Below are positions 13,581 to 62,233 of a stretch of DNA of 64,000 nucleotides, one piece after another. The position numbers were made by a program, and so were the translations under genes. Under the pieces are notes generated by a model. The model was not told the DNA's origin. It saw only the letters and a list, made by a program, of their open reading frames with translations, and did not search any database. The stretch lies in NCBI GenBank assembly GCA_045862915.1, contig BTVE01000011.1, positions 15,182-79,181 of the forward strand, given 5' to 3'. The stretch is from Acidimicrobiia bacterium (GTDB lineage Bacteria; Acidobacteriota; Vicinamibacteria; Vicinamibacterales; SCN-69-37). Positions within the stretch are counted from its first letter, which is position 1. Each line of letters starts with the position of its first letter.

Positions 13581-14885
13581 CTAGCTGTTCTCTGGCGCCT
13601 CACGGAACTCTGCCAGGACCTCCCTGGCGCCATGCCCCCGCACTGCCGTGACCGTCAGGCGAAACGGCCCGTACTCGACCGAGTCACCCACAACCGGGGG
13701 CCGGTCCAGGATGGCCATCACGAGGCCGCTCACGCTGTCCACCTCTTCGTGCTGGAGCTCGACGTCGAAGTGCTGCCCGAGCTCGTCAAGGCGCAAGGTG
13801 CCGGCGACCCGGGCGCTGGCGGCATCCACCGGCACGATGCTCGGCGACGCAGGGACGCCTTCATCAATTTCGCCGACCACCTCTTCGGCGAGGTCTTCAA
13901 GACTGAGCACACCCGCCGTGCCGCCGTGTTCATCCACGACCAGCGCCATATGTGCATGCGCCCGCTGCATCGTCGTCAGCACATCGTCGAGAGCGGCTGT
14001 TTCGGGGACAACGGGCATCGTGCGGACGTCAGACGGACCGATGCGCTCCTCGAGCATCAGCCGGCGCAGCAGGTCTTTCACGTGCAACATGCCGACGATG
14101 TGATCGAGATCGCCGTCGAAGACCGGATACCGCGTGTGGCGATGCGTCAGCACAAGCCTGCGGATCTCCGCGGGACCAGCGCCGACCGGAATGCCGACGA
14201 CGCGCACGCGAGGCACCATGACTTCGCCCGCGGACCGATCGCCAAACTCGAACAACTCACGCACGAGGCGTCCAGCTTCCTTGCCCAACGCGCCACCGGC
14301 CTGACTTTCCTCCACGATGAGCTGCAGCTCTTCAGGAGAGTACGACTCTTCGCGTGTGTGCGTCTGCCTGCGGATGCCCACCATTCGGAGCAGCAGCGCG
14401 CCCAGCGAGTCGAGGCCGACGACAAACGGATAGCCCAGGCGCAGCAGCCACTGCATCGGCCAGAAGACGGCGCGTGCGGTGCCTTCCGAGTGGCTGAGCG
14501 CGAGCGCCTTCGGGATCATCTCTCCCAGAAAGATGTGGAGGTAGGTGAGCGCACCGACCGCGAGCACGCTGGCGCCGACGTGTGCAGAGATGGGGCCGGC
14601 CTCGCCAAGGAACGTGAGCCGCGGCTCGAGCCATTCCGCCAGCGAGTGTTCGCCGTACATGCCGAGGCCCAGGCTGGCCACCGTGATGCCCAGTTGTGCT
14701 GTAGCGATGAAGCGGTCGCGTCCCTGGGCAGACTGCAGCAGGGACAACAGCCGGGCTGACAGCCCGTCGCCCTGATTGGCACGCGCCTCGACGGACGTGC
14801 GCGGGACCGCAACGATGGCAAACTCCGCGGCGACAAACAGCGCGTTCGCGAGCAGCAGAAGCGCGACGACGACCACGACGGTCAT
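13581..14885 (-). CDS. CNNM (DUF21)-CBS-CorC_HlyC family transporter-associated protein (hemolysin/TlyC-like)
   Basis: 434 aa. N-terminal 4-TM DUF21 region (AEFAIVAV...LGITVASLGLG), a tandem CBS pair (VMVPRVRVVGI, YPVFDGDLDHIVGMLHVKDL), and a C-terminal CorC/HlyC-like domain (GTLRLDELGQHF). Confidence 0.85.
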   Translation of the reverse strand: MTVVVVVALLLLANALFVAAEFAIVAVPRTSVEARANQGDGLSARLLSLLQSAQGRDRFIATAQLGITVASLGLGMYGEHSLAEWLEPRLTFLGEAGPISAHVGASVLAVGALTYLHIFLGEMIPKALALSHSEGTARAVFWPMQWLLRLGYPFVVGLDSLGALLLRMVGIRRQTHTREESYSPEELQLIVEESQAGGALGKEAGRLVRELFEFGDRSAGEVMVPRVRVVGIPVGAGPAEIRRLVLTHRHTRYPVFDGDLDHIVGMLHVKDLLRRLMLEERIGPSDVRTMPVVPETAALDDVLTTMQRAHAHMALVVDEHGGTAGVLSLEDLAEEVVGEIDEGVPASPSIVPVDAASARVAGTLRLDELGQHFDVELQHEEVDSVSGLVMAILDRPPVVGDSVEYGPFRLTVTAVRGHGAREVLAEFREAPENS

Positions 14886-15916: not shown

Positions 15917-15952
15917 GCAGGAACTAGTCTATAGTCCGCGGACGGGGGCTCG

Positions 15953-16008
15953 AAGTTCCGGGGTGCCGGAGTTCCGGGGTGCCGAAGTCCCGAAGTTCCG
16001 AAGTGCCG
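15953..16008 (+). repeat. Tandem array of seven 8-bp units, consensus RRGTKCCG
   Basis: Units: aagttccg gggtgccg gagttccg gggtgccg aagtcccg aagttccg aagtgccg. The array lies in the divergent intergenic region between the CNNM operon start (15916) and mscL (16028), ending ~10 nt before the GGAGGGGGAG ribosome-binding region. Confidence 0.85.
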
Positions 16009-16027
16009 GCGTGCTGGAGGGGGAGAG

Positions 16028-16375
16028 ATGTTCAGCGAGTTCAAGACGTTCATTGACAAGGGGAACGCCATCGACCTGGCGGTGGGTGTGGTGATTGGCG
16101 CGGCGTTCGGCAAGATCGTGAACTCGCTGGTGGCCGACGTGATCATGCCGCTGGTGGGGCTGTTGACGGGCGGCGTGGATTTCTCCAACCGGTTTGTCGT
16201 GCTGGGCGAAGGCCAATTTGCCACGCTGGCCGATGCCCGGGCGGCAAACGTGCCCGTGCTGGCCTATGGGTCGTTCATCAACACGGTTGTGGAGTTTGCG
16301 ATCGTGGCGTTTGCGATCTTCCTGGTCGTGCGGCAGATCAACAAGCTCCGCGGGGCCAAGGCCGAAGCGGCGTGA
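16028..16375 (+). CDS. mscL: Large-conductance mechanosensitive channel
   Basis: 115 aa. N-terminus is [44 protein letters not shown], followed by a second TM helix and a basic tail. Confidence 0.93.
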
Positions 16376-16378
16376 ACC

Positions 16379-16403
16379 CGTGGGGCGGACCTTCAGGTCC
16401 GCC
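16379..16403 (+). repeat. REP-like hairpin element (also a plausible mscL terminator stem)
   Basis: GTGGGGCGGACC-TTCA-GGTCCGCC has a perfect 8-bp stem (16384-16391 / 16396-16403), 4 nt after the mscL stop. It belongs to the same family as the elements at 16409, 55024, 61072 and 61521. Confidence 0.6.
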
Positions 16404-16408
16404 GAGAC

Positions 16409-16432
16409 GGCGGGTCTAACCACCCGCCCTAC
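16409..16432 (-). repeat. REP-like hairpin element, inverted relative to the 16379 copy
   Basis: GGCGGGT-CTAACC-ACCCGCC-CTAC. The reverse complement reads GTAGGGCGGGT...ACCCGCC, matching the family head GTAGGGCGG. Confidence 0.55.
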
Positions 16433-16502
16433 ATCTGTCTGCGAGTGTGCCGCGTCTGCTGGCTTGCCAGCCGAAGCGCCGAGCAAAGCGAGGCGCGAAG
16501 GC

Positions 16503-16596
16503 TGGCGGTGAGGCAGGGATTCGAACCCTGGGTACGGGTTTAAGCCCGTACAACGGTTTAGCAAACCGCCGCTTTCGGCCACTCAGCCACCTCACC
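16503..16596 (-). tRNA. tRNA-Ser (anticodon GCU), with encoded CCA
   Basis: The reverse complement reads GGTGAGGTGGCTGAGTGGCCGAAAGCGGCGGTTTGCTAAACCGTTGTACGGGCTTAAACCCGTACCCAGGGTTCGAATCCCTGCCTCACCGCCA. It has a 7-bp acceptor, anticodon loop TTGCTAA, a long variable arm, and a GGTTCGAATCC T-loop. Confidence 0.92.
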
Positions 16597-16656
16597 CGGC
16601 GGGCGAACCCGTAGTGTACTTCAGTTCCGGCGCGGGCCGGCCGCTACAATGCGGTC

Positions 16657-18221: not shown

Positions 18222-19451
18222 ATGCGTCACGGCTTCGAGCCTGTCATGGAGATGAAGCCTGAGCGGGCCACCAACGCTGCCTCGACAGGTCGGACGGTAT
18301 CCGAAGATTTCTGGCGGGAGGTGCAGGAAGGATTCACCCTCGACCGCACCATCATCAACCTCAACAACGGCGGCGTGTGCCCCAGTCCCCGCGTCGTGCA
18401 CGAAGCGCTGAAGCGCTATCTCGACATTTCCAACCAGTCGCCCGTGTATCACATGTGGCAGGTGCTGGAGCCGAACATCGAGTCGGTGCGTCGTGAGCTC
18501 GCGCGCGACATCGGCGCGGATCCGTCAACGATTGCGATTACGCGGAATGCGAGTGAGTCCCTCCAGACGGCCCAGCTGGGCATCGATCTGAAGCCGGGTG
18601 ACGAAGTTCTGACGACCAATCAGGATTATGGCCGGATGCTGCAGACCTGGGAGCAGCGGGTCACGCGCGACGGCATCAAACTCACCAAAATCCCCTTCCC
18701 TGTACCGCCAACACAGGCCGACCTCGTGCGGCGATTCGAGCAGGCGATCACGCCGGCGACGAAGGTCATTCACTTCTGCCACATCACGAACCTCACGGGA
18801 CACATCTTCCCGGCGAAGGAAATCTGTGACCTCGCACGGCGGCGGGGCATTCTGACGATCGTGGACGGGGCCCATGCCTATGCACATTTCCCGTTCAAGA
18901 TCACGGACTTCGACTGTGACTACTACGGCAGCAGTCTGCACAAGTGGCTGCTGGCGCCCATCGGCACTGGGCTGCTGTACGTCCGGCCCGATCGCATCGA
19001 GAAGACCTGGGCGCTGCAGCCGCCACCGGTCGGCCTGAATACGTCGATCAAGAAGTTTGAGGAGATCGGCACCCACCCGGCGGCCAACCACAATGCCATT
19101 GCCGAGGCACTGGTGTTCCATAGGGGCATTGGGGCCGAACGCAAGGCGGCGCGTCTGCGCTACCTGAAGGCGCGCTGGGCCGAGGCGCTGCGGACACTGC
19201 CGAAGATCCAGCTGCACACCAGCCTGGATCCCGCGCTGTCATGCGCCATCGGCACTGTGGGTATCGAAGGGATGAAGCCGGGTGACATCGCGTCGAAGTT
19301 GTGGGCCGACCACCGCATCATCGTGACGCCGATTACCGTGGGGCCGGCCGAGTCGCCCGAGTACGCCGGTGTCCGGGTGACACCCAACGTCTACACCACG
19401 CTGGATGAAGTGGACACCTTTATCGGGGCGATGCAGAAGCTCGCGCGATAG
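18222..19451 (+). CDS. Class V PLP-dependent aminotransferase-fold enzyme (cysteine desulfurase / isopenicillin-N-epimerase-like)
   Basis: 409 aa. Motifs: INLNNGGVCPSP, ITRNASESL, VDGAHAYAH, YYGSSLHKWLLAP (PLP-lysine context). An alternative start at 18249 (MEMKPE) is possible. Confidence 0.8.
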   Translation: MRHGFEPVMEMKPERATNAASTGRTVSEDFWREVQEGFTLDRTIINLNNGGVCPSPRVVHEALKRYLDISNQSPVYHMWQVLEPNIESVRRELARDIGADPSTIAITRNASESLQTAQLGIDLKPGDEVLTTNQDYGRMLQTWEQRVTRDGIKLTKIPFPVPPTQADLVRRFEQAITPATKVIHFCHITNLTGHIFPAKEICDLARRRGILTIVDGAHAYAHFPFKITDFDCDYYGSSLHKWLLAPIGTGLLYVRPDRIEKTWALQPPPVGLNTSIKKFEEIGTHPAANHNAIAEALVFHRGIGAERKAARLRYLKARWAEALRTLPKIQLHTSLDPALSCAIGTVGIEGMKPGDIASKLWADHRIIVTPITVGPAESPEYAGVRVTPNVYTTLDEVDTFIGAMQKLAR

Positions 19452-50246: not shown

Positions 50247-51581
50247 CTACTTTGGCGGCTTGAACCTGATCGTGCTTGAGAAGTTCCAGCTGTGTTTGGG
50301 CCGGTAGATGCCGACGTCTTTGATGCGCGACTTCACGCGGAACGTGTGGAGGAGGCGGTGGTAGTCGTAGGGCGCGCCGTCACGTTTGTGCACGGCCACG
50401 TCGAGTTTGTAGGTGCCTTCGACCAAATCGAGCGACTCGATGTTCAGCCCGACCAGCGCGTCGCCTTCGAGACGGTCGGCCTCCAACTCCTCGATGTCGG
50501 TGTTGGTCCCGTAGACGGGGACCCCGTCGGCCGTGAAGATGCCGATGCCAAAGACAAAATCTCGCACGGGGGCTGCGGCCTTGACGGCGAGCTGAATCTG
50601 CATTGCCTCACCGGTGTGAAACACCTGCGTGGGCTGCCCGTCTGCGGTGCGGAACTCCACGGACGAGATCTCAACACCGCCCGATCCCCACCGGCCTTCG
50701 CCGGCCATGTTCATGTCGGCGGCCACTTCGGTCGCGTCGACGGGTCGCGAGGCCTCGCTCGCAGTCGAGTCCTCGCCGAGGCCGGCGGCTTCGCGGGCCT
50801 TCGCGTCTGCCTGGCGTAGGAACTGTTCCTCCTGCCTCGCGACGTCCGTGACATAGATGCCAACGACGCGTTTGGGATCCCCTTCGGCCTTCTTCTCGCC
50901 CGAGTCCAGCCAGACGGCTTCGTCGCAGAAACGTTCAACGAGTCCAAGTGAGTGGGTCACGAGCAGGATCGTCTTGCCCCGTCGCTTGAACTCCCCGAAC
51001 TTGTCGAGGCACTTGTGCGTAAATCCCTCGTCACCGACCGCGAGTACCTCGTCGACCAGCAACACGTCGGGATCGACGTGAATGGCCACGGCGAATCCCA
51101 GACGCATGTACATACCGGACGAATACGTCTTGACCGGCGCGTCGATGAAATCCTGCAGTTCCGCAAACTCGACGATCTCGTCGAAGCGTCTCTGAATCTC
51201 CCGCTTCGACAGGCCGAGCATGATGCCGTTGATGAAGACATTCTCCCGACCGGAGATCTCCGGGTGGAATCCGGCGCCAAGCTCGATCAGTGCAGAGATC
51301 CGTCCTCGCACGTGCACCTGGCCGTCTGTCGGCTTGGTGATGCCGGCAACCAGCTTGAGCGTCGTGCTTTTGCCCGATCCGTTGCGCCCCACAACACCGT
51401 AGGTGCACCCCTTGGGCACCTCAAACGACACGTGTTTGAGCGCCTCAAAGGTCTCCTCGGGTCGAAGCTTCTTGACGAGGTCTCCTGAGAGCAGCGCGCT
51501 CTTGAGTGTCGAGAACTGCCTGCCGCCATAACGACGATAGATCTTCGAGACGTTGATGAGCTCAATTGCCGGAGTGCTCAT
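50247..51581 (-). CDS. wzt: Polysaccharide/O-antigen ABC exporter ATP-binding protein with a C-terminal carbohydrate-binding-type domain (Wzt/TagH-like)
   Basis: The start is at the internal ATG (MSTPAIELINVSKIY), making an ATGA overlap with the permease stop. It has Walker A GRNGSGKST, the signature YSSGM, Walker B LLVDE, and a ~190-aa beta-rich C-terminal extension. Confidence 0.85.
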   Translation of the reverse strand: MSTPAIELINVSKIYRRYGGRQFSTLKSALLSGDLVKKLRPEETFEALKHVSFEVPKGCTYGVVGRNGSGKSTTLKLVAGITKPTDGQVHVRGRISALIELGAGFHPEISGRENVFINGIMLGLSKREIQRRFDEIVEFAELQDFIDAPVKTYSSGMYMRLGFAVAIHVDPDVLLVDEVLAVGDEGFTHKCLDKFGEFKRRGKTILLVTHSLGLVERFCDEAVWLDSGEKKAEGDPKRVVGIYVTDVARQEEQFLRQADAKAREAAGLGEDSTASEASRPVDATEVAADMNMAGEGRWGSGGVEISSVEFRTADGQPTQVFHTGEAMQIQLAVKAAAPVRDFVFGIGIFTADGVPVYGTNTDIEELEADRLEGDALVGLNIESLDLVEGTYKLDVAVHKRDGAPYDYHRLLHTFRVKSRIKDVGIYRPKHSWNFSSTIRFKPPK

Positions 51582-52372
51582 ACCGCCTCCGCAAACGAGT
51601 CGCGCAGCCGATCGAACACCCAGTACGCACCGAGGAACAGCACGACAGACGCGGCGCCCAGGGCGAGCAGCCACCACTTGTGGCCGAACGGCCCGTCAAA
51701 GAACAGAATTTCCTGATACGAGATCGCAAGGTGCGAGAACGGATTCAGATCGAAGTAGAACTTGTACTTCTGGAAGTCCGGGTCGTTGTACCAGTAGATG
51801 ATCGGCGTGGCGAAGAACCAGAAGGTCAGCAGGTTCGCCACCAGATCCTTGACGTCACGAAAGTGCACCGCAAGGGCGGACAACAGCAACGCCAGCGCCG
51901 CCGTGAAGATGAACTGGACACCCACCACCGCGATGAACCAGGGGAGTTCGATCCAGTCCGGCGTGACCTGGTAATACGCCATGAACGCAATGAGGATGGG
52001 CAGGCCAAACAGGAAGTGCACCATGTTGGCGATGATTGTCACCAGCGGCAACACTTCGGCAGGGAAGAGTACCTTCTTGATCAGGTTGCCGCCGGAGATC
52101 AAGGAGCCGGTGGCCTCGTTGATCGACGACTGAAACCAGGTCCACGGCAGCAGCGCTGTGAACATGAACACAGCGTACGGCTGCACGCCCTCGGCCCGGT
52201 TCTTCAACAGGTACGTGAAGACAAAGCTGTAGATCGACAGGAGCAGGAGGGGGTTGACGAACGACCAGAAGAACCCGAGCACCGACCCGCGATACCGCGC
52301 CTTGAGATCACGCGCCACCAGGGTCTGAATCAGACCTCGGTAACGAAGCAACTTTTGCAGACTCTCAAACAT
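51578..52372 (-). CDS. wzm: ABC-2 type polysaccharide exporter permease (Wzm/TagG-like)
   Basis: The start is at the internal ATG (MFESLQKLLRYRGLIQTLVARDLKARYRGSVLGFFWSF), followed by six hydrophobic helices. Confidence 0.85.
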   Translation of the reverse strand: MFESLQKLLRYRGLIQTLVARDLKARYRGSVLGFFWSFVNPLLLLSIYSFVFTYLLKNRAEGVQPYAVFMFTALLPWTWFQSSINEATGSLISGGNLIKKVLFPAEVLPLVTIIANMVHFLFGLPILIAFMAYYQVTPDWIELPWFIAVVGVQFIFTAALALLLSALAVHFRDVKDLVANLLTFWFFATPIIYWYNDPDFQKYKFYFDLNPFSHLAISYQEILFFDGPFGHKWWLLALGAASVVLFLGAYWVFDRLRDSFAEAV

Positions 52373-53150
52373 CGATGCGCACCAGCACCACGGTGATGTT
52401 GTCCGGACCGCCGGCGGCATTGGCCGCGCTCACGAGCGCTGATGCCGCGGCCTCCAAATCGGCGCCTCGGGTGCCGGCGCTGCTGAGCGCGGTCTGCATG
52501 TCGTCGAGGCTGACCACCGAGGACAGTCCGTCCGAACAGACCAGCAGGACGTCGCCGGGCATCACCGGCAGTTCCCGAACGTCCACGTCGGGATCGTCAC
52601 CGCCGGAAATCGCGCGCGTGACCACGTTGCGCCACGGATGGCGGTGGGCATCGTCGTCGGACAACAGCCCGGCGCGCACCTGCTCGGTGACCCACGAGTG
52701 ATCCTGCGTCATCTGCTGCAGTACACGGTCGCGCATCCGGTACACACGACTGTCGCCCACGTGCGCGATGCACGCGGTGGCGGCGTCCCGATTGATCAGC
52801 ACGGCAGCCACCGTGGTGGCCATGCCCTTGAGCGCGGGATTGTCGGCCATCGCCGATGCGACGCGACGATTGGCGAGCCGGTACGCCGCGATCAGGCGAT
52901 TGGCATCAAGTGTCTTCGTGGTGTCGAACGGGAAGGGCCACGTCTGGTTGAGGTCCGCGTCACGCGATTCGTAGACGAATGACTCGACGACCTCGACGGT
53001 GAGACCGGATGCAACCTCGCCGGCTTCGTGGCCGCCCATCCCATCGGCCACGATGAACAGGCCGATGTCAGGACGCGCGCGGAAGGCGTCTTCATTGCTC
53101 TCCCGTCGCAACCCCGGATGGGTGACGGCAGCCGCCGAGACCTGCGTCAT
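52365..53150 (-). CDS. PP2C-family Ser/Thr protein phosphatase (Stp/PrpC-like)
   Basis: 261 aa. Motifs: THPGLRRESNEDAF, VADGMGGHEAGEVAS, HVGDSRVY, CSDGL, and GGPDNITVV. Confidence 0.85.
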   Translation of the reverse strand: MTQVSAAAVTHPGLRRESNEDAFRARPDIGLFIVADGMGGHEAGEVASGLTVEVVESFVYESRDADLNQTWPFPFDTTKTLDANRLIAAYRLANRRVASAMADNPALKGMATTVAAVLINRDAATACIAHVGDSRVYRMRDRVLQQMTQDHSWVTEQVRAGLLSDDDAHRHPWRNVVTRAISGGDDPDVDVRELPVMPGDVLLVCSDGLSSVVSLDDMQTALSSAGTRGADLEAAASALVSAANAAGGPDNITVVLVRIDV

Positions 53151-59180: not shown

Positions 59181-60059
59181 TCACTCGCCGGTCAGCGCCT
59201 CGTAGAGGCGCTGCAACTCGTCCTCATTCGTGAAGTCAATTTCGATGCGGCCGCGTTTGCCTCTGCGGACGATGCGCACGCGTGTGCCAAGAGCAAGCTT
59301 GAGCTGATCTTCGGCAGCGCGCGTATTCGGATCAACCTTCTGAGGCTCGGCGGGCGCGGCTGGTGATTTGGCGTCAACCTCGCGCCGCACGAGCGCTTCC
59401 GTATCGCGCACGGACAAGCCACGGGCGATCACGTCGCGGCCAAGGCGCCGCTGCGTGTTCTCATCCGGGAGCGACAACAACGCGCGCGCATGGCCCATCG
59501 ACAATGCGCCTTCGTCGAGTGCGGCGCGGACTTCCGCCGGCAGGCGGAGCAGTCGCATGTAGTTGGCCACGGTCGCGCGGTCCTTGCCGACCTGCGTGGC
59601 GATGGCCTCCTGCGACATCTGCAGTTCGTCTGTCAGTCGACGATACGCCTGGGCTTCTTCGATCGGCGAGAGGTTTTCGCGCTGGATGTTTTCGATCAGC
59701 GCGACTTCAAGCAGCTTGTCGTCGGGCACCTCCCGGACGGCGACAGGCACCTTGAGCAGACCGGCGCGTTGCGATGCGCGCCAGCGACGTTCGCCGGCCA
59801 CGATCTCATAGTGGTCCTCAACGCGGCGCACCACGATTGGCTGAATGACGCCGTTGGCGCGGATCGACTGCGCCAGTTCCTCCAGGCGCGTGTCGTCCAT
59901 GTGCACGCGGGGCTGGCGAGGGTTGGGAACCAGCAGGTCGATGTCGAGTTCCTGCGTGCGCGGCCGATCGGGCGTCGCCTGGGCGGCGGGTTGTGGTGGA
60001 GGAGCCGACGGAATCAGGGCGCTGAGGCCTCGTCCAAGCGCGGGTCGTTTGGCAGCCAT
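59181..60059 (-). CDS. parB: Chromosome partitioning protein ParB/Spo0J
   Basis: 292 aa. Motifs: LGRGLSALI, NPRQPR, QPIVVR, IVAGERRWRAS (ParB box II), an HTH region, and a C-terminal dimerisation segment. Confidence 0.92.
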   Translation of the reverse strand: MAAKRPALGRGLSALIPSAPPPQPAAQATPDRPRTQELDIDLLVPNPRQPRVHMDDTRLEELAQSIRANGVIQPIVVRRVEDHYEIVAGERRWRASQRAGLLKVPVAVREVPDDKLLEVALIENIQRENLSPIEEAQAYRRLTDELQMSQEAIATQVGKDRATVANYMRLLRLPAEVRAALDEGALSMGHARALLSLPDENTQRRLGRDVIARGLSVRDTEALVRREVDAKSPAAPAEPQKVDPNTRAAEDQLKLALGTRVRIVRRGKRGRIEIDFTNEDELQRLYEALTGE

Positions 60060-60070
60060 GGTCGGTCCTC

Positions 60071-60883
60071 TCAGGAGACTGTCGCGGGCGCGGCGGTCCG
60101 GGCCGCATCGCGGGCGAGGAATTCGCGGGCGAGTGACAGGTACGCCTCTGCGCCCCGTGAACGGGGATCGTGCAGGATGACCGGCACACCAAAGCTGGGA
60201 GCTTCACCAAGGCGGATGTTTCGCGGAATCACCGTCGAGAAGACTTTGTCGCCGAAGTACTCGCGGATGTTGCTGCCCACCTGCTGGCCCAGATTTGTTC
60301 GATCGTCATACATCGTCAACAACACGCCTTCGATCGAAAGTCCCGGATTGAGCGACTCGCGTACGCGCTCAAGCGTGCTCGTGAGCTCAGCGATGCCTTC
60401 AAGCGCGAAGTACTCGCAGTTGAGGGGAATCAGTACGGTGTCAGCGGCCACGAGTGCATTGAGCGTGAGCAGCCCCAACGAGGGCGGCGAGTCGATGAAC
60501 ACAAAATCAAACTCACCGCGGAGTTGGTCGATGAACCGTTTCAGGCGTTTGTCACGGTCCGGCAGATTCACCAGTTCGATTTCGGCGCCGGTGAGGTGTC
60601 GATCTGCGGGCACAAGAAACAGGTTGTCGACAGCAGTCGGCAGGACGAAGTCTTTGGCGGTGACGGGTTCACTCGCGGTCAGCGCGTCGTAAACCGTCCC
60701 GGCATCGGCTGCCTGGTCCTTCAGTCCCACGCCAGAGGTCAGATTGGCTTGCGGATCCATGTCGATCAGCAACACGCGCTGGTCGGCGAGGGCCAGTGAC
60801 GCTGGCAGGTTGATGGCGGTCGTGGTCTTGGCGACGCCGCCTTTCTGATTGGCGACGGCGATGACCCTTGTATTTTTGGTCAT
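60071..60883 (-). CDS. parA: Chromosome partitioning ATPase ParA/Soj
   Basis: 270 aa. Motifs: the deviant Walker A VANQKGGVAKTTT, IDMDPQAN, and FIDSPPSLG. Confidence 0.92.
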   Translation of the reverse strand: MTKNTRVIAVANQKGGVAKTTTAINLPASLALADQRVLLIDMDPQANLTSGVGLKDQAADAGTVYDALTASEPVTAKDFVLPTAVDNLFLVPADRHLTGAEIELVNLPDRDKRLKRFIDQLRGEFDFVFIDSPPSLGLLTLNALVAADTVLIPLNCEYFALEGIAELTSTLERVRESLNPGLSIEGVLLTMYDDRTNLGQQVGSNIREYFGDKVFSTVIPRNIRLGEAPSFGVPVILHDPRSRGAEAYLSLAREFLARDAARTAAPATVS

Positions 60884-60916
60884 ATAGGATAAACCAACAT
60901 CACTCTGGGCTCAGTG

Positions 60917-60925
60917 ATTATAGCA
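60917..60925 (-). promoter_or_regulatory. Candidate extended -10 promoter element for parAB
   Basis: The minus strand reads TGCTATAAT (TGn + perfect TATAAT), ending ~33 nt upstream of the parA ATG. No convincing -35 is present; that position falls in the 8-mer array. Confidence 0.3.
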
Positions 60926-60932
60926 GGGGGCG

Positions 60933-61037
60933 GGGTTCCGGAGTTTCCGGCGTTCCGAGGTGCCGAGGTTTCGGAGTTCCGAAGTGCCGGAGTTCCGAGG
61001 TTCCGAAGTTCCGAGGTTCCGGGGTTCCGGGGTTCCG
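60933..61037 (+). repeat. Tandem array of 13 units of the 8-bp repeat RRGTTCCG
   Basis: Units: gggttccg gagtttccg gcgttccg aggtgccg aggtttcg gagttccg aagtgccg gagttccg aggttccg aagttccg aggttccg gggttccg gggttccg. The unit family is the same as at 15953-16008. Confidence 0.9.
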
Positions 61038-61071
61038 GGGCGAGATAGCTAGGTAACTAGGTACGGCGGGC

Positions 61072-61095
61072 GTAGGGCGGAGCTTCAGCTCCGCC
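61072..61095 (+). repeat. REP-like hairpin element
   Basis: GTAGGGCGGAGC-TTCA-GCTCCGCC with a perfect 8-bp stem. It is followed by the GATC-containing palindrome GATCTTgAAGATC (61096-61108). Confidence 0.6.
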
Positions 61096-61107
61096 GATCT
61101 TGAAGAT

Positions 61108-61123
61108 CGTTCCACGTGGAACA
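61108..61123. other. parS centromere-like site 1
   Basis: CGTTCCACGTGGAACA has 14/16 identity to the Bacillus-type parS TGTTCCACGTGAAACA. The inner 14 bp, GTTCCACGTGGAAC, are perfectly palindromic. Confidence 0.75.
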
Positions 61124-61411
61124 CCGCTCTTCACGAAAGCCGCCGGGGCGCCCCTCAGGCCTTCGGCGGCAGCCGACAGATGCGGCCTGCGGATCGTCAG
61201 GTTTCTTCGGAGTTCTCGGAACGCAGTCGATCGCAGTTGTCTGCCGAGACCACCCAGACGCGGAACGCCGGAAGGCACCATGCTTGGCTCTGAATAGCCG
61301 GATCGTTTGGTTTGAAGGAGATCCGACCTTCACCAAGCGTGTATTCGCAGAAGAGAAGGCGCAGTAGAAGCCCGCAGCCGCCATTCGCCTCTGAGCCAAC
61401 ACATGACGACA

Positions 61412-61491
61412 CGAACTTCAGGGCCCCGGGAACTTCACAACTTCGGGACCACCGAACTTCGGAACTTCTGGAACCTCGGAACTGCGGAACC
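61412..61491 (-). repeat. Degenerate tandem array (~10 units) of the same 8-bp repeat in inverted orientation (CGGAACYY)
   Basis: Units: cgaacttc agggcccc gggaactt cacaactt cgggacca ccgaactt cggaactt ctggaacc tcggaact gcggaacc. The unit boundaries are approximate. Confidence 0.6.
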
Positions 61492-61498
61492 AAACCCA

Positions 61499-61514
61499 TG
61501 TTCCACGTGGAACA
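61499..61514. other. parS centromere-like site 2
   Basis: TGTTCCACGTGGAACA is a perfect 16-bp palindrome with 15/16 identity to TGTTCCACGTGAAACA. Confidence 0.8.
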
Positions 61515-61520
61515 CGGCGT

Positions 61521-61544
61521 CGGCGGGGCTGACGCCCGCCCTAC
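61521..61544 (-). repeat. REP-like hairpin element, inverted relative to the 61072 copy
   Basis: CGGCGGGgctgacgCCCGCC-CTAC. The reverse complement begins GTAGGGCGGGCGTCAGCCCCGCC. Confidence 0.55.
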
Positions 61545-61545
61545 C

Positions 61546-61583
61546 TCGGAACCTCGGAACTTCGGAACTTCGGAACCTAGAAC
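61546..61583 (-). repeat. Tandem array (4-5 units) of the 8-bp repeat in inverted orientation
   Basis: Units: tcggaacc tcggaact tcggaact tcggaacc tagaacaa. The array runs into the rsmG stop codon (61577-61579). Confidence 0.75.
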
Positions 61584-62233
61584 AACCTCGTGCTCTTGTT
61601 CAGCACCACGAGATGGCTGCCGATCGACGGTAGCAGGACATCGGAGGAACTCGACGTGAAGGGCGGAAAGAAGTCGAGCTTCGAGGACGACTCGGCTCCA
61701 AACATCAAGAGCCGGCCCCCCGGCTTGAGGAACGCCTGGATGGCAGTCAGCAGCTTTTTGTCCGGCCGGACGGCGCGCACCGTCACGACATCACAGGACT
61801 CGTGCATGTCGGTCCGCGTCAGCAACTCTTCAAGCCGGCAGTTCTCGACCGCGCCGCGCTCAAGCGAGAGCTGCCGGAGAACCTCTCGAAGGAAGGCACA
61901 TTTGCGCACCTTCACCTCCACCATGGTGAGGCGCAGCGAGGGGCTGGCGAGCAGGAGGGGAATGGCTGGCGAGCCGCCGCCGCTGCCAACGTCCATCGCC
62001 ACCCGCTCACCAGGCTCAATCCGGCCCGCCGCGAGGACTGGCTCCACAATGAGCCGGTCCACCGCATCGTCAGACATCGGATCGAGGGGTAGGGAAGTGA
62101 GGTTGATCTTCCGGTTCCACTTCGCCAGCAACTCGACGTACGCCGCCAAGTCGGTGACAAGCTCTGGTGCCGGATCCTCCCCAGCCTTCTGAAGTCGCCG
62201 GGTAATCCGGTGGATGGTATCCCGCTCTGCCAC
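61577..62233 (-). CDS. rsmG: 16S rRNA (guanine527-N7)-methyltransferase
   Basis: Motifs: LAKWNRKINLTSL and the SAM motif DVGSGGGSPAIPL. A GTG start at 62233 gives 218 aa. The 306-aa ORF-track version extends back into mnmG and is not credible. Confidence 0.85.
   Translation of the reverse strand: MAERDTIHRITRRLQKAGEDPAPELVTDLAAYVELLAKWNRKINLTSLPLDPMSDDAVDRLIVEPVLAAGRIEPGERVAMDVGSGGGSPAIPLLLASPSLRLTMVEVKVRKCAFLREVLRQLSLERGAVENCRLEELLTRTDMHESCDVVTVRAVRPDKKLLTAIQAFLKPGGRLLMFGAESSSKLDFFPPFTSSSSDVLLPSIGSHLVVLNKSTRLF

What the first reader, a model, noticed from the sequence alone, without database searches (positions are those of the whole stretch)
60884..61583. Two parS palindromes embedded in a mirror-symmetric scaffold of 8-bp GTTCCG arrays and REP hairpins, splitting rsmG from parA
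Seen in sequence. The usually contiguous mnmG-rsmG-parA-parB cluster is interrupted by a 690-bp non-coding gap.

The gap contains CGTTCCACGTGGAACA (61108-61123) and the perfect palindrome TGTTCCACGTGGAACA (61499-61514). These differ from the canonical parS TGTTCCACGTGAAACA at 2 and 1 positions.

The two sites are organised as a large imperfect mirror:
- Left arm: 13-unit array RRGTTCCG (60933-61037), then a REP hairpin (61072-61095), then parS1.
- Centre: a ~375-bp lower-GC spacer with no credible ORF.
- Right arm: a degenerate inverted array (61412-61491), then parS2, then an inverted REP (61521-61544), then an inverted array (61546-61583).

The repeat unit shares GTTCC with the parS half-site TGTTCCAC.

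Inference: the arrays could act as low-affinity ParB half-site landing pads, as a loading or roadblock structure for ParB-CTP clamps, or as cruciform-forming DNA. I know of no described parS locus with this architecture. The arrays may equally be an unrelated dispersed repeat that happens to sit here (see the mscL copy).
Basis: partly seen in the sequence, partly recalled or inferred. Interest (0 to 1): 0.7.

Follow-up and report, generated by a model that had tools for sequence, protein, structure and literature searches.

The report
Ordinary parS sites amid dispersed repeats
The gap between rsmG and parA holds two genuine chromosome-partition (parS) sites, but the mirror-image 8-bp arrays and hairpins around them belong to repeat families found at many gene ends in related soil bacteria without any parS, so they are probably not ParB-binding architecture.

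Summary
A 693-bp non-coding spacer (60884-61576) separates rsmG from parA. It holds two parS palindromes, three 8-bp tandem arrays and two GC-rich hairpins in mirror order.

The ParB-scaffold interpretation is not supported.
- The 16-mer TGTTCCACGTGGAACA sits in this same spacer in every Vicinamibacterales relative examined (1-4 copies). The sites are ancestral, ordinary centromere sites.
- The (GTTCCGRR)n arrays are a dispersed repeat. At least 120 metagenome loci carry them and none has a parS.
- They usually start a few bp after a stop codon and often form convergent pairs (38 convergent, 1 divergent). Mirror symmetry is therefore a property of the repeat family.
- Close relatives carry arrays at the same position with units that lack GTTCC (GTCCCGAA, CACYYCG, CAGATTCC, CCACCCACG). 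More distant relatives with the same parS have no arrays there.
- The arrays contain no half-parS heptamers.

One oddity remains. Within the close clade, 8 of 11 loci carry arrays in this spacer, against about 1-2 of 45 other long spacers. The unit sequences are related by small steps, so one old, inherited array is the likelier cause.

The closest analogues are cyanobacterial STRR repeats and REP/REPIN elements.

The parts
61577..62233 (-). rsmG (GidB methyltransferase). The start codon is uncertain; the stop codon is at 61577-61579.
   Evidence: Pfam PF02527, E = 2.9e-29. ORF list. Start trimmed.
61543..61578 (-). Array A1: (GTTCCGAR) x4.5, read in the rsmG/parA sense. It begins on the rsmG stop codon.
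   Evidence: TRF period 8, 92% matches. Its position and orientation follow the family rule: 44 of 54 arms next to a gene 3' end read GTTCCG in the gene's sense.
61522..61544 (-). REP-like hairpin: GTAGGGCGGGCGTCAGCCCCGCC on the minus strand.
   Evidence: Motif scan and fold. Conserved in the 97% ParA relative L214.
61499..61514 (.). parS2: perfect palindrome TGTTCCACGTGGAACA. This is the rsmG-proximal site, at the position where most relatives keep their parS.
   Evidence: Identical to the P. aeruginosa parS (PMC4368675). Together with the following GGGTTTGGTT it also scores as a terminator-like hairpin on the minus strand.
61412..61491 (-). Array A2: about 8-10 degenerate GTTCCGNN units, in the same orientation as A1.
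   Evidence: TRF 61429-61490, period 8, 7.6 copies, 69% matches. Present in L214 and L216.
61124..61411 (.). Centre: 288 bp, non-coding and fast-evolving. It contains decayed array remnants at 61205-61222 and 61244-61273.
   Evidence: No coding signal and no Rfam family. Only about 55% identical to L214 although ParA is 97% identical. Remnants from the repeat finder D3 and I17.
61108..61123 (.). parS1: CGTTCCACGTGGAACA, one mismatch at the outermost base.
   Evidence: The orthologous site in L214/L216 reads TGTTCCACGTGGAACG.
61061..61095 (+). REP-like hairpin GTAGGGCGGAGCTTCAGCTCCGCC (61072-61095), preceded by a partial second copy GTACGGCGGGCGT (61061-61073).
   Evidence: Inverted repeat I24. 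Arm alignment scores 25.5 against a shuffle mean of 0.45, sd 6.8.
60931..61040 (-). Array A3: (CGGAACYY) x13.6, read in the parA sense. It ends 5 bp upstream of the parA -10 element.
   Evidence: TRF. Short-read Logan contigs of the same organism break inside it. 22 of 24 arms next to a gene 5' end have this orientation.
60917..60925 (-). Putative parA promoter: extended -10 element TGCTATAAT, with no recognisable -35.
   Evidence: Read from the sequence. Conserved in L214/L216. Relatives have TAGAAT at the same place. The canonical two-hexamer scan found nothing. The promoter assignment is an inference.
60071..60883 (-). parA (Soj-type Walker ATPase).
   Evidence: Pfam PF13614 and PF01656. 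NCBI names it 'MAG: ParA family protein [Vicinamibacterales bacterium]'.
59181..60059 (-). parB: ParB_N, HTH_ParB and ParB_C domains, with a GERRWRA motif.
   Evidence: Pfam. Translation.
15951..16019 (+). Second copy of the array family in the window, upstream of mscL and with no parS nearby.
   Evidence: TRF. Sequence.
16380..16432 (.). Convergent doublet of the same REP-like hairpin family, 5 bp apart, downstream of mscL.

Best explanation
The rsmG-parA spacer is the ordinary origin-proximal centromere region of a Vicinamibacterales (Acidobacteriota) chromosome.

The two 16-bp palindromes are ancestral parS sites. ParB is inferred to load on them as a CTP-dependent clamp.

The rest of the 'scaffold' consists of two lineage-specific families of non-coding repeats that have colonised this spacer and expanded it from the usual roughly 70-440 bp to 693 bp.
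1. STRR-like tandem arrays of an 8-bp unit. Across related genomes they sit a few bp after stop codons, and about a third of elements form convergent inverted pairs that fold into long hairpins.
2. REP-like GC-rich hairpins, which also occur as convergent doublets.

The mirror symmetry follows from the palindromic organisation of these families and from their orientation rule. The arm next to an upstream gene's stop codon reads GTTCCG. The arm next to the downstream gene reads CGGAAC. Here the two arms bracket the spacer, and the parS sites lie in what is normally a 10-100 bp loop.

The arrays are not ParB half-sites. If they have a function, it is most likely at the transcript or DNA-structure level, as intercistronic or 3'-end hairpins that insulate or stabilise transcripts, as proposed for STRR and REP elements.

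Shown: the repeat families, their distribution and their orientation rule; conservation of parS; absence of arrays from this spacer in distant relatives. Inferred: ParB loading at parS; any RNA-level role; the order of insertion events.
For: parS
- Exact match to TGTTNCACGTGNAACA, significant in the window, and identical to the validated P. aeruginosa parS (PMC4368675).
- 1-4 copies in the same spacer in 13 of 14 distant relatives and in all 10 close relatives whose contig spans the spacer.
- parAB adjacent; ParB has the N-terminal, HTH and C-terminal domains and GERRWRA.
- dnaA lies about 8 kb away in syntenic relatives.

Arrays are dispersed and independent of parS
- A second copy lies upstream of mscL.
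107 of them have 60% GC or more. None has a parS within 1 mismatch in 575 kb.

Symmetry is intrinsic to the family
- 38 convergent pairs against 1 divergent. Median loop is about 28 bp.
- Pairs fold at -76 to -97 kcal/mol, z about -8.

Position rule
- Median 9 bp from a stop codon.
- 44 of 54 arms at a 3' end read GTTCCG in the gene's sense. 22 of 24 arms at a 5' end read CGGAAC.
- Flanking genes are convergent in 18 cases, tandem in 27 and divergent in 1.
- The window obeys this rule on both sides.

The unit is not tied to parS
- Arrays at the same position in relatives have units GTCCCGAA, CACYYCG, CAGATTCC, CCACCCACG and AACTTCCC.
- There are no half-parS heptamers in the arrays.
- Distant relatives with the identical parS have no arrays in this spacer, although they carry 7-bp arrays elsewhere.
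- L223, whose ParB is 94% identical to that of array-rich L220, has essentially lost them.

REP family: four copies in two convergent doublets in the window.
Against: - Within the close clade (ParA 79% identical or more), arrays lie in this spacer in 8 of 11 loci, against about 1-2 of 45 other spacers of 100 bp or more.
- Some arrangements look intimate. In L222 an array exactly bridges two parS. In L221 a parS-plus-array module is tandemly repeated to give four parS. In L224 each parS sits beside a plus arm of a convergent pair.
- The window's 'loop' of 390-510 bp is an outlier against the 41 other pairs, whose maximum is 303 bp.
- Each parS has a REP hairpin on its outer side, in mirror orientation. 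Independent insertion does not predict this.
- The rest of the source genome could not be scanned. 'Dispersed' therefore rests on one other copy in the window plus metagenome contigs from related organisms.
- No function of the arrays has been tested.
Confidence: 0.7

Rival explanations
1. The arrays are a functional, fast-evolving part of the centromere region in this clade. Examples would be a sequence-independent structural buffer or roadblock that limits ParB clamp sliding into rsmG or the parA promoter, or binding sites for an unknown array-binding factor. They would be kept at this locus by selection even though the unit sequence turns over.
For: - Arrays lie in the rsmG-parA spacer in 8 of 11 close-clade loci, against about 1-2 of 45 other spacers of 100 bp or more.
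- A minus-orientation array sits immediately upstream of the parA -10 or -35 in the window, L214, L218, L220, L221, L224 and L227.
- In L222 an array bridges two parS. In L221 parS-plus-array modules are amplified. In L224 arrays flank each parS.
- Both arms always share the genome's own unit.
Against: - The units differ by small steps only: AACYYCGG, CACYYCGG, CACCTCGC, CACYYCG, GACTTCGG, AACTTCCC. The 8 of 11 loci may therefore descend from a single old colonisation. They are not independent observations.
- L223, L225 and L226 have lost the arrays or lack them, yet retain parS and parAB.
- Relatives outside the clade manage without arrays.
- The same family sits at many ordinary gene ends and even in-frame inside a PP2C gene.
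- No candidate binding protein is known.
Confidence: 0.13
2. The mirror layout arose from an inverted duplication of an ancestral [array-REP-parS] module. The second parS and its REP would then be copies, not independent insertions.
For: - Each parS has a REP hairpin on its outer side, then an array, in mirror order.
- The left arm carries a partial copy (GTACGGCGGGCGT, 61061-61073) of the right-arm REP type (I24).
- The arm alignment scores 25.5 against a shuffle mean of 0.45, sd 6.8, maximum 21 of 500.
- The architecture was already present in the 97% ParA relative.
Against: - The similarity is confined to the REP consensus and the palindromic parS. The REP loops and the REP-parS spacings differ (12 bp against 6 bp).
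- Two parS in this spacer are common in relatives that have neither REPs nor arrays: L011, L013, L016, L223.
- Both repeat families are intrinsically convergent elsewhere, which gives the same picture without any duplication.
Confidence: 0.12
3. The arrays are a mutational by-product of the site. ParB-bound palindromes stall replication or transcription and provoke slippage and template switching, generating tandem and inverted short-unit repeats locally.
For: - Arrays are enriched and turn over rapidly in this spacer within the clade.
- Tandem amplification of whole parS modules in L221.
- Arrays directly abut parS in L222.
Against: - Most arrays lie at gene ends with no parS.
- Distant relatives with the same parS and ParB show no such instability.
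- The array unit matches arrays elsewhere in the same genome (mscL in the window; the parB-purM spacer in L218). This points to a genome-wide repeat family, not to local de novo generation.
Confidence: 0.05

Closest known systems
Chromosomal ParABS centromere sites (parS, consensus TGTTNCACGTGNAACA), such as the four oriC-proximal parS of Pseudomonas aeruginosa
   Same: - Identical 16-mer TGTTCCACGTGGAACA (PMC4368675; PMC7022226 Table 1).
- Next to parAB.
- Origin-proximal synteny: dnaA-rpmH-rnpA-yidC-mnmE-mnmG-rsmG-parAB in relatives.
- A few clustered copies.
   Different: Nothing essential. Only the repeat-rich surroundings and the long distance (about 185 bp) between the promoter-proximal parS and the parA -10 element differ. 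In array-free relatives parS directly abuts a TTGAC -35.
STRR (short tandemly repeated repetitive) sequences of filamentous cyanobacteria
   Same: - Dispersed intergenic tandem arrays of a 7-9 bp unit.
- Able to form hairpins between genes.
- Function unknown; proposed roles are transcript stability or translational coupling (PMC2670836).
   Different: - Different phylum (Acidobacteriota, Vicinamibacterales).
- Mostly 8-bp units (GTTCCGRR and variants).
- A strict convergent-pair organisation and orientation rule relative to stop codons. To my knowledge STRR are not described in these terms.
- The unit sequence differs between related genomes.
REP / BIME / REPIN elements (with RAYT transposases)
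   Same: - Short GC-rich extragenic palindromes with a conserved 5' motif (GTAGGGCGG).
- Occur as inverted doublets, as in a REPIN (PMC3116915, PMC3337134).
- Located after gene 3' ends.
   Different: - Only four copies were seen, all in this window.
- No RAYT gene was looked for.
- The doublet in the parS spacer is 426 bp apart, not tens of bp.
Iteron-type centromeres of RHH-ParB plasmid systems, such as the pSM19035 heptad arrays
   Same: Four or more contiguous 7-8 bp repeats in direct or inverted orientation, immediately upstream of a parA promoter (PMC9499535).
   Different: - The ParB here is the HTH/CTPase type with its own canonical parS.
- No RHH protein is encoded in the operon.
- The arrays are dispersed at unrelated gene ends and are not confined to par or regulated promoters.
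Half-parS sites bound by P. aeruginosa ParB
   Same: This is a documented precedent for ParB binding to partial parS motifs scattered in a genome (PMC7022226).
   Different: Those sites are the heptamers GTTCCAC or GTTTCAC. The arrays contain none and match only 5 of the 8 half-site positions. In relatives even that pentamer is lost.

Membership tests
Chromosomal parS (type Ia ParABS centromere) | 16-bp inverted repeat matching TGTTNCACGTGNAACA | tested here: met
   61499-61514 matches with 0 mismatches and 61108-61123 with 1 mismatch. Chance expectation is 0.38 sites at 3 mismatches or fewer. Identical to the P. aeruginosa parS.
Chromosomal parS (type Ia ParABS centromere) | Located next to parAB and near the replication origin | tested here: met
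   parA and parB lie immediately downstream. In syntenic relatives dnaA and dnaN lie about 8 kb upstream of parA. The window itself ends inside mnmG, so origin proximity is inferred from synteny.
Chromosomal parS (type Ia ParABS centromere) | Conserved at the orthologous position in relatives | tested here: met
   13 of 14 distant relatives and all 10 close relatives whose contig spans the spacer have 1-4 parS between rsmG and parA.
Chromosomal parS (type Ia ParABS centromere) | Bound by the cognate ParB, with CTP-dependent clamp loading | not testable with these tools
   Only indirect support: ParB has the ParB_N, HTH and C-terminal domains and a GERRWRA motif.
Half-parS ParB sites (applied to the arrays) | Heptamer GTTCCAC or GTTTCAC | tested here: not met
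   In the spacer these heptamers occur only inside the two parS and never in the arrays. Array units in relatives lack even GTTCC.
STRR-like dispersed short tandem repeats (applied to the arrays) | Tandem arrays of a 7-9 bp unit at many intergenic sites in a genome or lineage | tested here: met
   Two loci in the window. At least 120 metagenome loci. Arrays with 7-, 8- and 9-bp units in relatives. The rest of the source genome was not available.
STRR-like dispersed short tandem repeats (applied to the arrays) | Hairpin-forming potential between genes | tested here: met
   Convergent pairs fold at -76 to -97 kcal/mol, z about -8. 38 convergent pairs against 1 divergent.
STRR-like dispersed short tandem repeats (applied to the arrays) | Cyanobacterial heptamer unit sequences (STRR1-3) and cyanobacterial host | tested here: not met
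   The host is a Vicinamibacterales MAG and the units are unrelated 8-mers. This is an analogue, not a member. The STRR unit sequences are recalled from memory.
REP/REPIN (applied to the GC-rich hairpins) | Short imperfect palindrome with a conserved head, repeated at extragenic sites, often as inverted doublets | tested here: met
   Four copies of G[TC][AG]GGGCGG-N6-16-CCGCC in two convergent doublets. Hairpins confirmed by folding. The sample is small.
REP/REPIN (applied to the GC-rich hairpins) | Cognate RAYT (Y1 transposase) in the genome | not tested
   The window's other genes were not screened and the rest of the genome is unavailable.
Iteron centromere of RHH-ParB (type Ib/II) systems | Partner centromere-binding protein of the RHH type encoded with parA | tested here: not met
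   The operon encodes an HTH-type ParB (PF17762, PF02195). No small RHH ORF is present, and the spacer shows no coding signal.
Intrinsic (rho-independent) terminator | GC-rich hairpin followed by a U-tract | tested here: inconclusive
   The scan flags the parS2 hairpin plus GGGTTTGGTT on the minus strand. However, 2 sites were found against 1.0 expected by chance. Array pairs lack U-tracts and often sit 8-18 bp before the next start codon, which makes them intercistronic.

The most novel reading that the evidence does not exclude
In one Vicinamibacterales clade the chromosomal centromere has acquired a second, sequence-flexible layer. Short-unit tandem arrays are kept between parS and the flanking genes, above all just upstream of the parA promoter. 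There they act as a structural buffer, a roadblock for ParB-CTP clamps or a docking array for an unknown factor. The unit sequence co-evolves genome-wide with a dispersed repeat family.
Probability: 0.1. Interest if true: 0.75.

Novelty: new variant of a known kind. Interest (0 to 1): 0.33.

Why it matters
For partition biology the result is mostly negative but useful. The striking scaffold around these parS sites is explained by dispersed repeats, so it should not be read as new centromere architecture without experiments.

The by-product is a reasonably well-characterised repeat family in Acidobacteriota that I could not find described in the literature. Its features are:
- 7-9 bp tandem arrays forming convergent, hairpin-capable pairs;
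- placement a few bp from stop codons, with a strict orientation rule;
- units that differ between related genomes.

The family matters in three practical ways:
- It breaks short-read assemblies exactly here.
- It creates spurious ORFs and N-terminal extensions in annotation.
- It raises the same unanswered questions as STRR and REP elements about how such repeats spread and homogenise.

The persistence of arrays in the centromere spacer across a clade offers a tractable test of whether the DNA flanking parS influences ParB loading or spreading.

Tried and rejected
- **Hidden gene in the gap.** Nine ORFs of 62-115 aa all have flat GC across codon positions, against 0.73-0.86 at position 3 in neighbouring genes. 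Rejected.
- **Known RNA family.** Rfam at gathering threshold and at E up to 10 gave only chance-level hits. The centre is poorly conserved even in the 97% ParA relative. Rejected.
- **Canonical sigma-70 promoter scan.** No hit. The extended -10 element TGCTATAAT was found by eye and by conservation.
- **Exact look-up of the window's ParA.** Returned only 1.1-1.3 kb Logan contigs that break inside array A3. They confirm the sequence but give no comparison.
- **Viral-contig scan with a looser array pattern.** Returned 8 loci; most are other simple 8-bp tandem arrays (GTGCCG/CGGCAC units) and none was followed up, so it is uninformative.
- **Literature search** for the array sequence and for repeats in Vicinamibacteria. 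Nothing relevant.
- **'Independent recurrent gain' of arrays at this spacer.** This looked strong while the units seemed unrelated. I downgraded it after seeing that the units differ by one or two steps.
- **Cruciform DNA.** Rejected by inference, because the arms are 390-510 bp apart.
- **Intrinsic curvature.** An 8-bp period is out of phase with the DNA helix (inference).
- **My GC3-based gene caller.** It is crude. It missed the ABC2_membrane gene at 51578-52420 and called ORFs across about a quarter of the arrays. Context counts are therefore approximate.
Full report
**1. What is in the sequence**

All genes around the finding lie on the minus strand (Pfam):
- mnmG: 62266 to beyond 63993
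- rsmG: stop codon at 61577-61579
- parA: 60071-60883
- parB: 59181-60059
- then a purM-like gene and the atp genes

Between rsmG and parA lies a 693-bp spacer (60884-61576). It shows no coding signature: GC content is flat across the three codon positions in every ORF. It has no Rfam match near threshold.

Read in the direction of transcription (minus strand), the spacer contains, in order:
- the rsmG stop codon
- (GTTCCGAR) x4.5
- a GC-rich hairpin, GTAGGGCGGGCGTCAGCCCCGCC
- parS2, TGTTCCACGTGGAACA
- about 8-10 degenerate GTTCCGNN units
- a 288-bp centre
- parS1 (CGTTCCACGTGGAACA on the plus strand)
- a second hairpin of the same family in the opposite orientation
- (CGGAACYY) x13.6
- 5 bp of G/C
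- TGCTATAAT
- 33 nt
- the parA ATG

TRF, the repeat finder and the mismatch search confirm each element and show that it exceeds chance.

**2. The parS sites are ordinary and ancestral**

The organism is a Vicinamibacterales (Acidobacteriota) MAG.

Fourteen species-level relatives have ParB 53-73% identical to the window's. In these, the rsmG-parA spacer is 67-440 bp. It carries one or two parS sites, mostly the identical 16-mer. The site typically lies 10-60 bp after rsmG and directly abuts a TTGAC -35 box.

Ten closer relatives whose contig spans the spacer (ParA 78-97% identical) have one to four parS sites in the same spacer. In those loci dnaA and dnaN lie about 8 kb upstream, so the region is origin-proximal.

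The 16-mer is the experimentally validated parS of Pseudomonas aeruginosa (PMC4368675). ParB has the N-terminal, HTH and dimerisation domains and a GERRWRA motif. Loading of ParB-CTP clamps at these sites is inferred from established knowledge of the family. It was not tested here.

**3. The arrays are a dispersed repeat family with built-in mirror symmetry**

- A second array sits upstream of mscL at 15951-16019 with no parS nearby.
Of these, 107 have 60% GC or more, and many come from JGI samples that recur in the list (sample types were not looked up).
- In the 575 kb recovered there is no parS within one mismatch.
- The 114 elements comprise 75 single arrays, 38 convergent pairs of the form (GGTTCCGR)n-loop-(YCGGAACC)n, and only one divergent pair.
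- Loops have a median of about 28 bp.
- Pairs fold into hairpins of -76 to -97 kcal/mol.
- Using a rough GC3-based gene caller, arrays lie a median of 9 bp from a stop codon.
- An arm beside a gene's 3' end reads GTTCCG in that gene's sense in 44 of 54 cases. An arm beside a 5' end reads CGGAAC in 22 of 24 cases.
- Flanking genes are convergent (18 cases) or tandem (27 cases). They are almost never divergent (1 case).
- Many pairs end only 8-18 bp before the next start codon. These are intercistronic hairpins, not terminators.

The window's spacer obeys both orientation rules. The array on the rsmG stop codon reads GTTCCG, and the array in front of parA reads CGGAAC.

The GC-rich hairpins are likewise a small family (G[TC][AG]GGGCGG-N6-16-CCGCC). 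A convergent doublet lies 5 bp apart after mscL, and the two copies in the spacer also face each other.

Mirror symmetry is thus what both families do everywhere.

**4. The arrays are not parS-related in sequence**

- Half-parS binding by ParB is a documented phenomenon, but it concerns the heptamers GTTCCAC and GTTTCAC (PMC7022226). In the spacer these occur only inside the two parS.
- In relatives, the arrays occupying the same position have different units:

| Locus | Array unit |
|---|---|
| L220, L222 | GTCCCGAA |
| L218 | 7-mer CACYYCG |
| L221 | CAGATTCC |
| L224 | 9-mer CCACCCACG |
| L227 | AACTTCCC |
| L214 | extra CACCTCGC units |

- The pentamer shared with parS in this genome is therefore a coincidence of one unit variant.
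- Relatives outside the clade have the same parS and no arrays in this spacer, although they carry a few 7-bp arrays elsewhere.
- L223, whose ParB is 94% identical to that of array-rich L220, has only degenerate traces.

**5. What remains odd**

- Within the close clade, 8 of 11 loci have arrays in this spacer. By comparison, roughly 1-2 of 45 other spacers of 100 bp or more in the same loci have them.
- Some arrangements are intimate:
  - An array exactly bridges two parS in L222.
  - A parS-plus-array module of about 200 bp is repeated in L221, giving four parS.
  - Two convergent pairs each adjoin a parS in L224.
- The window's arms are 390-510 bp apart, which is outside the range seen elsewhere.
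- When the spacer is folded as a read-through RNA, the two GTTCCG arrays (about 4 + 8 units) jointly pair with the 13-unit CGGAAC array. REP-parS2 then forms a side branch.

I first read the differing units as independent gains. That reading would imply a locus-specific attraction.

On closer inspection the units form a chain of one- or two-step variants: AACYYCGG, CACYYCGG, CACCTCGC, CACYYCG, GACTTCGG, AACTTCCC. Several of these variants coexist inside the window's own arrays.

The simpler reading is one old array at the parA-proximal position. It would be inherited and remodelled by slippage, and it shares its unit with the genome's other arrays. In L218 the same 7-mer recurs between parB and purM.

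The counts are therefore not independent. The enrichment cannot be taken at face value, but a locus-specific role is not excluded.

**6. Most likely mechanism and confidence**

- About 0.7: ordinary parS sites, plus passenger or RNA-level repeat elements that expanded the spacer. The arrays resemble cyanobacterial STRR repeats, which are 7-bp, hairpin-forming and of unknown function, possibly transcript stability (PMC2670836). The hairpins resemble REP/REPIN elements.
- About 0.13: the arrays have a centromere-related structural role in this clade.
- About 0.12: the mirror arose by inverted duplication of an array-REP-parS module. The support is the partial REP at 61061-61073 and the arm alignment, which scores 25.5 against 0.45 ± 6.8 for shuffles.
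- About 0.05: the arrays are a mutational by-product of ParB-bound palindromes.

An iteron-type centromere like the pSM19035 heptads (PMC9499535) is a formal look-alike. It fails on the defining partner, because no RHH protein is present and the ParB here is the HTH type. It also fails on distribution.

**7. Novelty and score**

The parS sites are already known biology. The array family is, as far as my searches show, an undescribed acidobacterial variant of a known kind of element. The finding as framed, a new parS architecture, is not supported, so I score interest at 0.33. The most novel reading still open is that the arrays form a functional, sequence-flexible layer of the centromere. I give it about 10% probability. 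It is testable with ParB ChIP-seq and array deletions.

Noticed in passing
window 15917-16027 and 16376-16656: mscL (16028-16375) is bracketed by both repeat families. An 8-unit array (GTTCCG and GTGCCG variants) fills the 111-bp divergent spacer upstream. A convergent REP doublet (16380-16432, copies 5 bp apart) lies downstream, just before a tRNA gene (16506-16596, minus strand).
   Followed up: partly
L221 18416-18514; L222 18281-18319; L220 about 18330-18370: In three relatives a (GGRACYYC)n array lies inside the coding region of a PP2C phosphatase, near its C-terminus. In L221 TRF reports a period of 24, which is 3 x 8 and so preserves the reading frame. L224 and the window's PP2C (52365-53150) lack the insert. 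The arrays can therefore expand in-frame in a coding linker.
   Followed up: partly
L221 9010-10000: This relative has four parS sites in a 992-bp spacer. Three lie in a module of about 200 bp that is tandemly duplicated: parS, then about 60 conserved bp, then (CAGATTCC)n. The public gene call places a 176-aa ORF with no Pfam hit across it, probably spuriously.
   Followed up: partly
L001, L002, L211-L217 (5' ends); P0002: Short-read (Logan) contigs of this species and its 97% relative start or end inside the arrays. The relative's ParA is called with a 32-aa N-terminal extension that runs through an array. The repeats thus break assemblies and distort gene calls at this locus.
   Followed up: partly
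L015 10860-10946; L218 11709-11759: Two relatives carry 7-bp-unit arrays immediately after the parB stop codon. L015 has a convergent pair, CGGGATT / CGAATCC. L218 has CGCACTC, the same unit as in its parS spacer. These arrays are absent at that position in the window and the other loci.
   Followed up: no
L003-L016, about 10-40 bp downstream of parS: In array-free relatives the promoter-proximal parS is followed almost at once by a TTGAC -35 box, suggesting direct ParB occlusion of the parA promoter. In the window parS1 lies about 185 bp from the -10 element, and the promoter appears to rely on an extended -10 (TGCTATAAT) with no recognisable -35.
   Followed up: partly
window 14074-14089: A parS-like 16-mer, TCTTTCACGTGCAACA, lies inside an ORF. 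It has 3 mismatches to the perfect site and 1 mismatch to the degenerate consensus. The count of such sites is within chance expectation.
   Followed up: no
L226 9345-10000: This relative (ParA 78% identical) has no short-unit array. Instead its single parS is flanked by two direct copies of a ~40-nt GC-rich segment (CAGCGCGAAGCGCGAGCAGCCTGCGAAGCAGGCCAGCAGG), with an inverted, partly matching copy near rsmG. This is a different repeat in a similar bracketing layout.
   Followed up: no
L084, L088 (viral contigs): Some IMG/VR contigs carry perfect 8-bp arrays (CGGCACTC x6, CGGCACCC x8) next to other short tandem repeats. These may be phage or plasmid iterons, and no link to the family studied here was established.
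   Followed up: no
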